From: a virus | Taxonomy: Duplodnaviria; Heunggongvirae; Uroviricota; Caudoviricetes | Strand: one strand, 5' to 3' | DNA length: 64,000 bases | Virus record (IMG/VR): IMGVR_UViG_3300037312_000757 | The notes under the pieces: model-generated | Told to the model about the DNA's origin: nothing | Databases searched by the model: none | The model's input: only the letters and a program-made list of their open reading frames with translations | Part shown: positions 25,338-28,297 of the stretch, one piece after another | Position numbering within the stretch: position 1 is the stretch's first letter | Layout: each line of letters opens with the position of its first letter | Program-made: the position numbers and the translations under genes

Positions 25338-25955
25338 TCACCTACGCTTAACTTTCTTCACCACATATTTGTTGAGGCGATTCTTCATGCGATTCTTTGC
25401 ATTGTTCAGTTCACGACCCTTGTCTTTTTGCGCCGCACGATACGATTCAATCGCCGCCAGGTAATCCTTTTCAAAGTCCGTGAATTTCGTTTTAAACTCT
25501 GGGGGCAACGAACGCAAGGAGGGCAGCAACTCAGACTTGAATTTGTCAAACTTCCGCTTAGATGAATTGACGTGGCTGTTTGCACCGTCGCTCACCGCTG
25601 TGCTTGCATTGCGTTCCAGCTCACGGATCGTCTCAGCTTCGGCCATGATGTCATCCCAATCGGGATTCTCGAGAATCATCATGAGCTTCAGTTCATCTTT
25701 GTTCTGTTTGATAAAGGTGTCCTGAATCATCATAAACGCAAGCGCTTCACCATCGTCTTCGATATAGATGGTGAACGGATGCCACAATGTTTCCATCATC
25801 GCGACATTACAAAATGCGTCAAGCCGGTTTTTATCAACTTCCCGTTGCCACTTTGCATCCGGACACAAGCTCTTGAGCGCATCTAGATCGAACGAGCTTG
25901 ACGATGGAGTCGACCATCTCGAATACTGGTAATTGTAGATGAAAAGATGAGACAT
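25338..25955 (-). CDS. Long paralog-family member with C-terminal coiled coil
   Basis: IYIEDDGEALAF; similar to 25955..26560 and 27611..28297. Confidence 0.65.
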   Translation of the reverse strand: MSHLFIYNYQYSRWSTPSSSSFDLDALKSLCPDAKWQREVDKNRLDAFCNVAMMETLWHPFTIYIEDDGEALAFMMIQDTFIKQNKDELKLMMILENPDWDDIMAEAETIRELERNASTAVSDGANSHVNSSKRKFDKFKSELLPSLRSLPPEFKTKFTDFEKDYLAAIESYRAAQKDKGRELNNAKNRMKNRLNKYVVKKVKRR

Positions 25956-26560
25956 TATTTCTTGTTATATTTGTCGAGATACTTCAGCAACTCTTTGCGC
26001 TCTTTGTTGAGCTTAGCCAAAGATGGCTTCAAATTGTCATGGTGTGCTTTCAATCTTGCTTGAAGCACACCATTGAATTCTTTCCACAGCACATCAAGAT
26101 CATCACCCAAACCGCCGTTCAATCGGTTCATGGCTTGCGTAAAGTCGTATTCTTTGTTGCGAAGCTTAGACACTGCCATAGTTGCTTCGGTACGGCTAGT
26201 GTCGTGATCAATCAGCCACTTTAGTTCGGTACCTTCCTTGAGCGGTGTGACCAAGTCCATATCTTGAATTAGCCATGCCAACGAGGCGGATTCATCACGA
26301 ATGAATTTGTCAGAACACAAACGAAAAGCCAACGCTTCCATGTCATCATCAATTTCTATGATGAAAGAGCCTTCCAGGATTTCATCATTACATGCGCGGC
26401 CGATTGCATGAAGAGTATGCCGGGGATATTTGGTTGTGGCATGATACCAATTATATTGGCTGAAGATACGGAAACTACTCGCATACTCACCAATCAGATT
26501 GATATCATACGCTTTGTTGACGTCGTATTCTTTACCGCGCTTGTAAACGAAGGTGTACAT
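25955..26560 (-). CDS. Long paralog-family member with C-terminal coiled coil
   Basis: IEIDDDMEALAFRL. Confidence 0.65.
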   Translation of the reverse strand: MYTFVYKRGKEYDVNKAYDINLIGEYASSFRIFSQYNWYHATTKYPRHTLHAIGRACNDEILEGSFIIEIDDDMEALAFRLCSDKFIRDESASLAWLIQDMDLVTPLKEGTELKWLIDHDTSRTEATMAVSKLRNKEYDFTQAMNRLNGGLGDDLDVLWKEFNGVLQARLKAHHDNLKPSLAKLNKERKELLKYLDKYNKK

Positions 26561-27124
26561 TTATTTGAATATTGTTTTTCTTATTATGGAATTGTACTCA
26601 TCCGCCAACGCCATACTCTCACCAACCATTTCCATAAAATAGGTGAGTATGTCTGCTTCATCCAGCTGAAGCGTTGCTTCTGAAGCGCCGCACTCACTTA
26701 CAATTTTCATATTGTGAGTTTTGGCTATTTTCATCATAAACCCGTTTCTCGTCAAGCAGTAGCTCATTAGAATTTTCACTCGACGATTACGGCATACAAC
26801 CATTGCGCGTTCAAACAACTCGGTACCAAGACCTTTGCCACGGTGCCCTTCTTCAACACTTAGACCAATCTCGGCACGTTCTGCGAAGAATGAATGTGCG
26901 TCCCCTAGGAACGCAATCTCGCAAGCGGCAACAACATTATGATACTCGTCAAACGCTGCCAATACAAGACGCTGAATGCCATCTTTAGTATTGACATGGT
27001 TTAAAATCGCATCATCGGTTTGCTGACACCCAAAACGAAGATAGCGATCATCTGCATTTAATCTACACAAATGATCGCTATAATGTTTGAGCTCATGTGC
27101 ATAGAGCCTTCTTATAGTATTCAT
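26561..27124 (-). CDS. GNAT-family N-acetyltransferase
   Basis: DRYLRF, AEIGLSVEEGHRGKGLGTEL (acetyl-CoA binding motif A), N..M..IA. Confidence 0.88.
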   Translation of the reverse strand: MNTIRRLYAHELKHYSDHLCRLNADDRYLRFGCQQTDDAILNHVNTKDGIQRLVLAAFDEYHNVVAACEIAFLGDAHSFFAERAEIGLSVEEGHRGKGLGTELFERAMVVCRNRRVKILMSYCLTRNGFMMKIAKTHNMKIVSECGASEATLQLDEADILTYFMEMVGESMALADEYNSIIRKTIFK

Positions 27125-27129
27125 CGTAA

Positions 27130-27574
27130 TTCTCAGGTAATGCTTACCGCTGAGAGTAGGCGGCTATCTGTTGCTGGCCTTTTGTTGGATTATGCGCCAC
27201 CAACTCCCTATTTGGTGGGGTTCCCAACGTGTCCACTAGCAGCGCTCACTCCGCTAGTATCCAGCGCGACTGCCTTTTTAGACTGCGAGCAATGCAGTAA
27301 TGCTACGGCTACTAACCACTGATCATGTGGTGGAAACAAGGTGACAGCTTGCTTCCGTTAAGTCGCTTTATCGCCATAACACCGAGTAAATGTCTAGCCG
27401 CAATCTATGCAGCGCGTTCCATGGTTTGGCGTGGGCGGCCGAAACCAAGGGGATGAACGCTAGGTCACTGGGACCAAAGACCTTATGGTTTACTCTCGTG
27501 CTCCGCCCCTTATATGACGGAATACACTTGCCATATTAGTTGCGCCTTTGTTTCGGCGCGTCGTCTACATCACA
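27130..27574 (-). ncRNA. Putative large structured non-coding RNA or long leader, family unrecognised
   Basis: ~445 nt with no credible ORF in a gene-dense region; own promoter; at least 6 hairpins plus long-range complementarities. Confidence 0.6.
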
Positions 27575-27580
27575 GACTCT

Positions 27581-27608
27581 ATTCTATACAACTGGCAACC
27601 TACGTCAA
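27581..27608 (-). promoter_or_regulatory. Sigma70-type promoter driving the putative ncRNA
   Basis: TTGACG-N16-TAGAAT. Confidence 0.7.
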
Positions 27609-27610
27609 GC

Positions 27611-28297
27611 TTACTTTTTAGAACGTGAGTTATAGATGGCAAACTTAGACAGCTTCTGGCGAATCGAGACTTTGTTCTTGTTGGCTTCTTTACGCTCAGC
27701 TTTCACTTCATCTTTAATTGAATCATGAGTGGCGGTGAAGTCAACTGCCATTTGCTTCACGGTTTTCTTGAACTCATCTGTCACAAGATCACCATACGAA
27801 TTGAATGCGTTTTCAAAACGATCAAGTTCGCGTTTCAGAGAAGCAAGACGCTTCAACTTTCGCTTCTGTTCAAGTTTCTCTTTTTCCTTGTCTTCTGACT
27901 TGGACAGGATTTCGAAGATGGCTTGCGTTGACATGCGATCGTAATCAATGTCCTTGAACACATAACGCAATTGTGATTCGTAGCTTGACCAGTAGTATGA
28001 ATAACCACGGGTGGTTTGTTGATTTATCTTGAAATTGCCACCAGCATTTACAATAGCCATCAATGCTTCAGCTTCTTTATCGTCGGAGACTTCAAAGATC
28101 ATCGCATCTTTCATTTCATTTTCGATTGACTCGCACAGCTTGGCAAACTTATGTCGCTGACCATCTTCCCAGATGCAATGATATGTGCTAGTTGGTGCAA
28201 GCTTCTTGAACTTTTCAAAGTCAAAACGCTTTTTCAGCTCAGGGTAATTCCAGTTGGAAAGATCGCCGCGTTCCGGCAGGAAAACAAACAAATGCAT
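27611..28297 (-). CDS. Long paralog-family member with C-terminal coiled coil
   Basis: MHLFVF..FDFEKFKKLAP...FEVSDDKEAEAL parallels 25338..25955. Confidence 0.65.
   Translation of the reverse strand: MHLFVFLPERGDLSNWNYPELKKRFDFEKFKKLAPTSTYHCIWEDGQRHKFAKLCESIENEMKDAMIFEVSDDKEAEALMAIVNAGGNFKINQQTTRGYSYYWSSYESQLRYVFKDIDYDRMSTQAIFEILSKSEDKEKEKLEQKRKLKRLASLKRELDRFENAFNSYGDLVTDEFKKTVKQMAVDFTATHDSIKDEVKAERKEANKNKVSIRQKLSKFAIYNSRSKK

What the first reader, a model, noticed from the sequence alone, without database searches (positions are those of the whole stretch)
27130..27608. ~445-nt promoter-driven, densely structured non-coding RNA upstream of a GNAT gene
Seen: an ORF-poor gap in a tightly packed minus-strand operon, preceded by TTGACG-N16-TAGAAT and starting with a variant of the early leader (ATGTAGACGAC). 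Hairpins occur at 27542-27559, 27422-27447 (enclosed by 27414-27419/27455-27460), 27282-27298, 27235-27258, 27197-27218 and 27131-27155. Long-range complements: 27491-27497 with 27152-27158 and 27503-27507 with 27159-27163 (crossed, pseudoknot-like); 27395-27401 can pair with either 27305-27311 or 27160-27166 (mutually exclusive). The last hairpin ends 6 nt before the GNAT start and competes with the long-range pairing. I did not recognise tmRNA, RNase P or group I/II intron signatures. Inference: a novel large phage ncRNA (ribozyme, scaffold or protein sponge) or a riboswitch-like leader controlling the acetyltransferase.
Basis: partly seen in the sequence, partly recalled or inferred. Interest (0 to 1): 0.8.

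Follow-up and report, generated by a model that had tools for sequence, protein, structure and literature searches.

The report
Compact GOLLD-like RNA in megaphages
The gene-free gap in this 524-kb phage encodes a real, conserved folded RNA of about 440 bases. It is a stripped-down relative of the giant cage-forming GOLLD RNAs, it always sits in front of an acetyltransferase gene, and it keeps the GOLLD core while lacking the parts that build the cage.

Summary
A 486-nt ORF-free gap (27125-27610, minus strand) starts with TTGACG-N16-TAGAAT and folds better than shuffles (z = -3.4). The seventh hairpin and the long-range "pseudoknot" pairings are not conserved.

It is not an unrecognised class. 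Rfam's GOLLD model hits it below threshold (44.7 bits, cut-off 150, E 2e-10). I found nine distinct homologues in related uncultured phage contigs. All lie in a 470-600 nt gap directly upstream of a 59-64 % identical GNAT gene, and all hit GOLLD below threshold (36-81 bits).

Covariation supports the fold. In the 3' half 90 % of cells pair (24-49 % when slid) and 19 of 41 pairs change on both sides. In the 5' half 98 % pair.

The family keeps the GOLLD P17 junction, with J17/18 and GAGUA, and the P24-P27 hub. It lacks the P20-P22 arm and the ~400-nt 5' cap domain. It is not in a tRNA array.

A 15-17 bp hairpin inside GNAT codons 15-28, with frozen synonymous sites, probably ends or processes the RNA.

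Verdict: a new compact variant of a known kind. Its function is unknown, as for GOLLD. No transcript data could be obtained. The scan had not noted this family on other DNA.

The parts
27581..27608 (-). Sigma-70-type promoter TTGACG-N16-TAGAAT (-35 at 27608-27603, -10 at 27586-27581). RNA numbering n=1 is 27580.
   Evidence: The same hexamers and spacing occur in 7 of 7 complete homologues. The same promoter class stands in front of phage tRNA genes.
27146..27580 (-). Compact GOLLD-like RNA, from the predicted 5' end to the end of P27 (about 435 nt)
   Evidence: Rfam GOLLD 44.7 bits, E 2.3e-10. Homologues are aligned in A1. Covariation is shown.
27384..27559 (-). Lineage-specific 5' half. It holds hairpin Ha (27559-27542) and hairpin Hb (27527-27498). 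Junction helix Hc (27495-27489 with 27390-27384) encloses H1 (27475-27463, P14-like, after the conserved AAGUCUUUGG), H2 (27460-27414, with an extension found only in this phage) and H3 (27413-27397).
   Evidence: On A3, 97.9 % of cells pair against 29-45 % when slid, and 11 of 25 pairs change on both sides.
27300..27382 (-). GOLLD P17 junction. It consists of P17 (27382-27373 with 27309-27300), J17/18 GAUAAAGCGACUUAA (27372-27358), P18 (27356-27332), P19 (27331-27315) and UAGUA (27314-27310, GAGUA in relatives). The P20-P22 arm is absent.
   Evidence: In P17, 6 of 10 pairs change on both sides. All 9 members fold P18 and P19 as two adjacent hairpins of different sequence. The Rfam alignment of relatives places P17, J17/18 and GAGUA and deletes 71 nt of P20-22.
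27272..27298 (-). Hairpin S1 (27298-27282). Its loop GCY pairs with the downstream RGC (27290-27288 with 27274-27272). This is the P23 equivalent, drawn as an H-type pseudoknot with an A-rich third loop.
   Evidence: S1 covaries within subgroup A. The loop and downstream trinucleotides are complementary in all 9 members but nearly invariant, so the pseudoknot itself is inferred.
27146..27265 (-). Conserved GOLLD hub. It consists of P24 (27265-27261 with 27177-27173), P25 (27259-27234), P26 (27228-27184) and P27 (27164-27146, loop CUACUCUCA). P26 carries an inserted hairpin (27218-27197) whose loop AUAGGGAG resembles a Shine-Dalgarno site.
   Evidence: GUGGA, GGGAA, AUAAU, AAAG and UA.UC.CA are invariant across 25 compact and canonical sequences.
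27031..27081 (-). Conserved long hairpin (27081-27041) with a U-rich tail, inside GNAT codons 15-31. It is a candidate terminator, attenuator or RNase III site of the RNA-GNAT unit.
   Evidence: It is flagged terminator-like. A perfect 15-17 bp stem occurs in all 9 loci. Synonymous sites are frozen in codons 15-31 only. It is absent from the distant GNAT homologues L265 and L267.
26561..27124 (-). GNAT acetyltransferase gene, always immediately downstream of the RNA
   Evidence: Pfam Acetyltransf_1, E 7e-7. Homologues of 59-68 % identity all have the upstream gap.

Best explanation
The gap encodes a stable structured RNA that is a reduced, divergent relative of GOLLD RNA. It is transcribed from a conserved consensus-like sigma-70 promoter of the same class that drives this phage's tRNA genes.

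The RNA folds into two halves. The 3' half (about 240 nt) is the GOLLD P17 junction, with J17/18, two short hairpins P18 and P19 and the GAGUA linker, followed by the P23-P27 hub. In solved GOLLD structures this hub is the intramolecular core organised around loop L27. The 5' half (about 200 nt) is a lineage-specific multi-stem junction.

The RNA lacks the roughly 400-nt 5' cap domain (P1-P12). It also lacks the P20-P22 arm, which carries the loops and receptor that join GOLLD protomers into rings and cages.

No terminator separates it from the GNAT gene, so the two are co-transcribed. A conserved 15-17 bp hairpin with a U-rich tail, 44-94 nt into the GNAT reading frame, most likely ends or processes most transcripts. 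That would release a stable RNA of about 0.45-0.55 kb and let only a fraction continue as GNAT mRNA.

Inferred: it acts in trans during infection through the conserved hub, as GOLLD does. GOLLD's own function is unknown. The usual GOLLD contacts for joining copies into a ring are not available to it.
For: Homology to GOLLD:
- Rfam CM 44.7 bits, E 2.3e-10. It is the only hit in the 524-kb genome.
- All nine homologues hit GOLLD, E 2.7e-6 to 1.1e-19.
- In L262, L250 and L258 the CM alignment itself assigns P13/14, P17, J17/18, GAGUA and P23-P27, and deletes P20-22.
- An HMM built from 70 canonical GOLLDs hits only this locus. The family HMM hits the cores of canonical GOLLDs.
- In a cross-family alignment, P26 and P27 pair in 90.8 % of cells, with covariation 0.59 against 0.11 or less when slid.

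Reality of the RNA:
- There are nine distinct homologues with a conserved promoter.
- Covariation is shown. P18 and P19 refold with different sequences.
- No ORF is conserved, and most indels are not multiples of three.

No room for a 5' domain:
- The promoter lies 97 nt before the P14-like hairpin, and a real paralogous ORF ends at 27611.
- No sequence like a 5' domain occurs elsewhere in the genome.

Co-transcription and 3' element.

Literature: an isolated 375-nt GOLLD 3' domain folds and assembles on its own (PMC12990946). Its contacts between copies use L14, L15, L20, L21, P21 and L24 (PMC12990946, PMC12286853).
Against: - The score is far below Rfam's gathering threshold for every member.
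- Three defining GOLLD traits are missing: the 5' domain, the P20-22 arm and the tRNA-array context.
The 5' and 3' ends, stability and abundance are therefore inferred.
- The U-tract after the hairpin is interrupted, and the flanks can extend the stem. It may be a processing or translational element rather than a terminator.
- The strict linkage to GNAT would also fit a cis-acting role.
- The homology of the 5' half to P13-P16 is unclear in this phage's subgroup.
Confidence: 0.75

Rival explanations
1. It is mainly a cis-acting leader (riboswitch-like or protein-sensing) that controls transcription read-through or translation of the GNAT gene. The hairpin in the ORF would be its expression platform.
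For: The RNA is immediately upstream of the GNAT gene, on the same strand, in every member, with no terminator in between. A terminator-like hairpin specific to this lineage sits early in the ORF. A contig of a 50 %-identical GNAT also shows a ~670-nt gap upstream.
Against: Its homologues, the GOLLD RNAs, are stand-alone RNAs with no GNAT nearby. In the distant relative L265, two genes separate the RNA from the GNAT. The RNA is far larger and more elaborate than known leaders.
Confidence: 0.15
2. It is a decaying remnant of a full GOLLD gene, or an unrelated RNA that shares a convergent motif, with no function of its own.
For: The RNA is reduced in size, scores low against Rfam, and lacks the cage-forming parts.
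Against: Nine diverged members keep the promoter, invariant blocks and 30 pairs with compensatory changes. Meanwhile the neighbouring protein has drifted to 29 % identity. Similarity to GOLLD covers several helices and linkers in the same order, not one motif.
Confidence: 0.05
3. The gap encodes one or more small proteins.
For: ORFs of 26-60 codons can be drawn on either strand of the gap.
Against: Their positions, frames and lengths differ between homologues. In the A2 alignment, 43 of 61 gap runs are not multiples of three. Substitutions are compensatory in helices.
Confidence: 0.02

Closest known systems
GOLLD RNA (Rfam RF02032). Solved examples: env-38 14-mer cage (PMC12286853) and the S. 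agalactiae full-length 12-mer (PMC12990946).
   Same: It is phage-encoded. It has the P17 multi-stem junction with J17/18 GA(U)AAG..CUUAA and the GAGUA linker. It has the P23-P27 hub with invariant GUGGA, GGGAA, AUAAUCC, AAAAG and the UCUCA loop. Like canonical GOLLD, its 5' part is variable and its 3' part conserved.
   Different: It is about 435 nt, against 700-830 nt or more. It has no P1-P12 cap domain and no P20-P22 arm, so L20, L21 and P21, which make the contacts between copies, are missing. P18 and P19 are short. It has an extra hairpin S1 at P23 and an extra hairpin in L26. It is not in a tRNA array and no tRNA is embedded. It is fused to a GNAT transcription unit. Its score is 37-81 bits against the 150-bit threshold.
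Isolated 3' domain of S. agalactiae GOLLD (375-nt laboratory construct, P14-P27, decamer, PDB 9LMF as listed in PMC12990946)
   Same: It is similar in size, and it shows that a GOLLD 3' domain can exist without the 5' cap domain.
   Different: That construct keeps P20-P22 and assembles through them. The phage RNA is natural, lacks that arm and has a different 5' junction.
L265 RNA (NCBI GCA_040384165.1, contig JAWVHB010000405.1)
   Same: It is a sub-threshold GOLLD relative (77 bits) in a phage-like contig that also carries a GNAT homologue (48 % identical) nearby.
   Different: It keeps P13/14 and part of P20-22, lies in an 877-nt gap, and is separated from the GNAT gene by two genes. Its GNAT lacks the hairpin in the ORF. 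It looks like an intermediate form.
ROOL RNA and other large ornate phage RNAs
   Same: They are large structured phage RNAs of unknown function.
   Different: No Rfam match to ROOL or to any family other than GOLLD was found.

Membership tests
GOLLD RNA (RF02032) | Covariance-model score at or above Rfam's gathering threshold (150 bits) | tested here: not met
   The window RNA scores 44.7 bits. The nine relatives score 36.5-81.3 bits. Canonical controls score 143-272 bits.
GOLLD RNA (RF02032) | Statistically significant match to the model | tested here: met
   E is 2.3e-10 and 3.1e-11 in the whole genome. Relatives reach 1.1e-19. A sequence-only HMM of 70 GOLLDs gives E 1.4e-7 genome-wide, with this as its only hit.
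GOLLD RNA (RF02032) | 3' hub P24-P27 with invariant GUGGA, GGGAA, AUAAUCC, AAAAG and the UCUCA loop | tested here: met
   P24-P27 covary within the family. P26 and P27 covary across the compact and canonical sets.
GOLLD RNA (RF02032) | P17 helix closing a multi-stem junction, with J17/18 GAAAG..CUAAU and the GAGUA linker | tested here: met
   The Rfam alignment places them in L262, L250 and L258. In P17, 6 of 10 pairs have compensatory changes. J17/18 and (G/U)AGUAGC are invariant blocks.
GOLLD RNA (RF02032) | P20-P22 arm, which carries L20, L21 and P21, the elements that make ring and cage contacts | tested here: not met
   Only two hairpins lie inside P17 in all 9 members. The Rfam alignment deletes 71 model positions there. 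The interface roles are taken from PMC12990946 and PMC12286853.
GOLLD RNA (RF02032) | P13/P14 hairpin with a UCAAAAG-type loop before the linker | tested here: inconclusive
   It is recognisable in subgroup B (L262: GGUAUUCU..UGAAAA..AGAGCC). In this phage only AAGUCUUUGG and a 4-bp hairpin remain.
GOLLD RNA (RF02032) | Large 5' domain (P1-P12, about 300-420 nt) | tested here: not met
   The conserved promoter lies 97 nt before the P14-like hairpin, and a real ORF ends at 27611. An HMM of 54 canonical 5' regions finds nothing in the genome. That HMM uses sequence only, so its sensitivity is limited.
GOLLD RNA (RF02032) | Location in or beside tRNA arrays, sometimes with a tRNA embedded | tested here: not met
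   The nearest tRNA is 31 kb away, and the 389-402 kb tRNA island is 70 kb away. The promoter class is nevertheless shared with tRNA genes.
GOLLD RNA (RF02032) | Assembly of identical copies into a ring or cage | not testable with these tools
   This needs mass photometry or cryo-EM of the transcript.
Riboswitch or cis-regulatory leader | Conserved, mutually exclusive pairing that links the sensor to the start region or a terminator | tested here: not met
The ORF hairpin is conserved, but no competing partner for it was found.
Group I/II intron, RNase P, tmRNA | Match to the Rfam models | tested here: not met
   No hit appears even at E up to 10 in the 901-nt search. The phage's tmRNA is elsewhere.

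The most novel reading that the evidence does not exclude
This is a natural 'core-only' GOLLD that does not form a cage. It may stay single or assemble in a new way. It works together with the acetyltransferase it is transcribed with, for example by guiding or regulating acetylation of a component of the translation machinery. That would point to the P17 and P23-P27 hub, not the cage, as the functional heart of all GOLLD RNAs.
Probability: 0.15. Interest if true: 0.8.

Novelty: new variant of a known kind. Interest (0 to 1): 0.6.

Why it matters
GOLLD RNAs are among the largest bacterial and phage non-coding RNAs. They were recently shown to build RNA-only cages, yet their function is unknown. 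A natural lineage that keeps the junction and hub while discarding the cap domain and the arm that joins protomers has three uses.
- It defines the minimal conserved core.
- It separates what the core does from what the cage does.
- It supplies a fixed genetic partner, a GNAT gene with a dedicated hairpin in its ORF, which canonical GOLLD loci lack.

It also shows that Rfam's gathering cut-off hides a clade of GOLLD relatives in very large phages.

Tried and rejected
- blastn of the RNA against 50,697 phage records found no match.
- The search for related loci with the GNAT protein in viral contigs found nothing.
- My first motif patterns used the wrong spacing (N4 instead of N3 after AUAAUCC) and returned mostly chance hits.
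- The corrected patterns returned about 90 canonical GOLLDs but no compact ones.
- The single metagenome scan, aimed at variants with an insertion in L26, gave full-size GC-rich GOLLDs and chance hits. None resembles this RNA outside the core.
- A family-specific pattern gave one chance hit in viral contigs and 33 chance hits in prokaryotic genomes. None was confirmed by nhmmer.
- No DNA could be fetched for the sister 523,572-bp contig (P0002) or for the P0012 contigs. Only their gene maps, which show the gap, were available.
- I did not build a covariance model. The 240-nt 3' half exceeds what can be calibrated, and nhmmer was sufficient.
- A kissing interaction between C-rich P18/P19 loops and the GGGAG loop of the L26 insert was rejected. 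L252 and subgroup B break it.
- A palindromic P19 loop as a dimerisation site was rejected. It occurs only in this phage and in L261.

Full report
WHAT IS THERE. The window is part of a complete 523,836-bp virus record with terminal repeats. The record carries 59 tRNA genes and a tmRNA.

On the minus strand, a 228-codon ORF ends at 27611 and a GNAT acetyltransferase ORF starts at 27124 (Pfam Acetyltransf_1). The 486 nt between them hold no conserved reading frame.

The gap opens with TTGACG-N16-TAGAAT (27608-27581). This is the best promoter-like site in the region and is unique in the window. The gap folds to -167.4 kcal/mol, z = -3.37 against dinucleotide shuffles.

I number the RNA from n=1 at 27580, so window position = 27581 - n.

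WHAT IT RESEMBLES. At Rfam's gathering thresholds only a tRNA is found in the window. With E-value reporting on 901 nt, the only meaningful hit is GOLLD (RF02032): 27147-27357, 44.7 bits against a threshold of 150, E 2.3e-10. It is also the only real hit in the whole genome.

The matched motifs are those of the 3' end of GOLLD: UAC..GUGGA, GGGAA..AUAAUCC, AAAAG and the UCUCA loop. An independent sequence-only HMM, which I built from 70 canonical GOLLD 3' domains collected from viral contigs, hits this locus alone in the genome (E 1.4e-7).

HOMOLOGUES. DNA searches found no close relative, so I went through the neighbouring protein. The GNAT has homologues of 59-68 % identity, one of them on a 523,572-bp contig. 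Every contig that could be read or mapped has a gene-free gap of 470-600 nt directly upstream of that gene.

Those gaps align with the window RNA and give nine distinct sequences in two subgroups:
- Subgroup A: this phage, L252, L251, L264, L260 and L261.
- Subgroup B: L250, L258 and L262.

All seven complete members keep TTGACR-N16-TAGAAT followed by AGAGUCUGU. The protein upstream has drifted to 29 % identity, whereas the RNA keeps long invariant blocks.

All nine hit Rfam GOLLD significantly but below threshold (36.5-81.3 bits, E 2.7e-6 to 1.1e-19). For L262, L250 and L258 the Rfam alignment itself assigns the following elements:
- P13/P14.
- The long-range helix P17.
- The linker J17/18 (GAUAGCGACUUAAU against the consensus GAAAGgugaCUAAU).
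- Short P18 and P19.
- GAGUA, and P23-P27.

It deletes the 71 model positions of P20-P22. The window RNA is colinear with these sequences. In the window RNA's own hit, the local alignment had simply used hairpin P18 in place of P13.

STRUCTURE AND COVARIATION. RNAalifold recovers P17, P25, P26 and P27, with 14 of 31 predicted pairs changed on both sides.

A structure drawn by homology to GOLLD for the 3' half (P17, S1, a P23-like pseudoknot, P24-P27) was tested on alignment A2:
- 90.4 % of cells pair, against 24-49 % when the partners are slid by 1-3 columns.
- 19 of 41 pairs change on both sides.
- No shuffle out of 500 reaches the observed values.

Between J17/18 and GAGUA, all nine sequences fold into exactly two adjacent hairpins of unrelated sequence.

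The 5' half of subgroup A holds hairpin Hb and a junction helix Hc that encloses H1, H2 and H3. It gives 97.9 % pairing against 29-45 % when slid, with 11 of 25 pairs compensatory.

Across 25 sequences, compact and canonical together, P26 and P27 pair in 90.8 % of cells with covariation 0.59, against 0.11 or less when slid. GUGGA, G.GAA, UAAU.C, AAAG and UA.UC.CA are invariant.

The loop of hairpin S1 (GCY) is complementary to RGC just before GGCAGUC in all nine members. This corresponds to the two strands of canonical P23. Both sides barely vary, so the pseudoknot is an inference.

WHAT IS MISSING. Canonical GOLLDs are 700-830 nt or longer (PMC12286853, PMC12990946). They have a 5' cap domain (P1-P12) and a 3' domain in which P20-P22 carries L20, L21 and P21. 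Together with L14, L15 and L24, these make the contacts that join protomers into rings and cages.

In this phage the promoter lies only 97 nt before the P14-like hairpin. The upstream ORF is a real member of a paralogue family. No sequence resembling a canonical 5' domain is found anywhere in the genome (this was a sequence-only test of limited sensitivity). P17 encloses only two short hairpins.

The RNA is therefore about 435 nt. It keeps the elements that the cryo-EM paper describes as gathered around loop L27 (P23, J24/26, J17/18, P18), with the exception of P22. It lacks the known assembly interfaces.

It is also not in a tRNA array. The nearest tRNA is 31 kb away and the tRNA island 70 kb away. 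Its promoter nevertheless belongs to a class of about 20 TTGACx-N16/17-TAGAAT promoters in this genome.

THE 3' SIDE. Many canonical GOLLDs have a U-tract right after P27. The compact family does not, and no terminator-like site lies between P27 and the GNAT start.

Instead, a 15-17 bp perfect hairpin followed by CUUCGUUUUGG lies at 27081-27031, inside GNAT codons 15-31. It is present in all nine loci.

Third codon positions are invariant or nearly so in 13 of these 17 codons. They vary freely in codons 1-14 and 32-70, including at conserved Asp, His and Ala codons.

The distant GNAT homologues L265 and L267 keep much of the peptide motif but not the hairpin. The element is therefore under RNA-level selection and is tied to the arrangement in which the RNA is fused to the GNAT unit.

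I read it as the terminator, attenuator or RNase III site that sets the 3' end of the stable RNA. That step is inferred. The flanks can also extend the stem, which would fit processing or translational control.

AN INTERMEDIATE FORM. L265 is a 96-kb contig in an NCBI assembly. It carries a 453-nt GOLLD match (77 bits) with P13/14, P17-P19 and part of P20-22. The match lies in an 877-nt gap, two genes upstream of a 48 %-identical GNAT. This suggests that the link between GOLLD and GNAT is older than the reduction.

RIVAL READINGS. A purely cis-acting leader is the main alternative, given the strict linkage to GNAT. However, the homologous GOLLD RNAs are stand-alone RNAs, L265 breaks the adjacency, and none of the proposed switching pairings is conserved. 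A decaying remnant is contradicted by purifying selection with compensatory changes. Coding is contradicted by the frame-breaking indels. No intron, RNase P or tmRNA model matches.

LIMITS. The transcript's ends, abundance and oligomeric state are inferred. Two independent assemblies (L259 and L264) begin within four bases of the end of the -10 box. That would fit RNA-derived contigs, but I could not learn the sample types. GOLLD's own function is unknown, so the function here is unknown too.

VERDICT. This is a real, conserved, promoter-driven structured RNA. It is a new compact variant of the GOLLD kind rather than a new class, with an unusual fixed partnership with an acetyltransferase gene.

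Noticed in passing
window 27031-27081 (minus strand), inside the GNAT ORF: A perfect 15-17 bp hairpin with a U-rich tail is encoded within the conserved peptide YSDHLxRLNxDDRYLRFG. Synonymous sites are frozen only there. It is conserved in 9 of 9 compact-family loci and absent from the distant GNAT homologues.
   Followed up: yes
whole genome (G000); for example 190465, 337632, 410261 and 472715 in genome coordinates: The genome has about 20 promoters of the form TTGACx-N16/17-TAGAAT. Several lie directly before tRNA genes (Sec, Val, Cys), and many are followed at about +10 by a shared leader, (C/G)AUGGUAGAC or GAUGUAGAC. The leader's role is unknown.
   Followed up: partly
L259:1 and L264:1: Two contigs from independent assemblies begin 2 nt after the end of the -10 box (L259) and 4 nt before it (L264), at the predicted 5' end of the RNA. 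Both run through the GNAT gene into the next gene. They may be RNA-derived assemblies, but the sample type is unknown.
   Followed up: no
window 27204-27211 (loop of the hairpin inserted in L26): The loop carries a Shine-Dalgarno-like GGGAG or GGAGG in this phage, L251, L264, L260 and L261, but not in L252. Subgroup B lacks the insert. Published pull-downs report that GOLLD binds ribosomes (cited in PMC12286853).
   Followed up: partly
L265:792-1669: An NCBI-assembly contig (JAWVHB010000405.1) holds a sub-threshold GOLLD relative (77 bits) with a 71-nt insertion in P25 and a partial P20-22. It lies two genes upstream of a GNAT homologue and looks like an evolutionary intermediate.
   Followed up: partly
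L246:4005-4962: This metagenome contig carries two GOLLD RNAs in tandem. The second is cut off by the contig end. tRNAs follow them.
   Followed up: no
L188:635-987 and L188:2471-2558: A viral contig with a GC-rich GOLLD, which has a tRNA embedded in its linker, also encodes a tmRNA and a weak tRNA-Sec-like match within a long tRNA array.
   Followed up: no
genome 182959-183462 and 190515-190591: The megaphage encodes its own tmRNA (tag ANDNVFAMAA, proteobacterial in style) and a tRNA-Sec, besides 58 other tRNAs.
   Followed up: no
window 25338-26560 and 27611-28297: The ORF upstream of the RNA and the two ORFs downstream of the GNAT gene are paralogues. The same arrangement is syntenic in relatives, although the proteins are only about 29 % identical.
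   Followed up: partly
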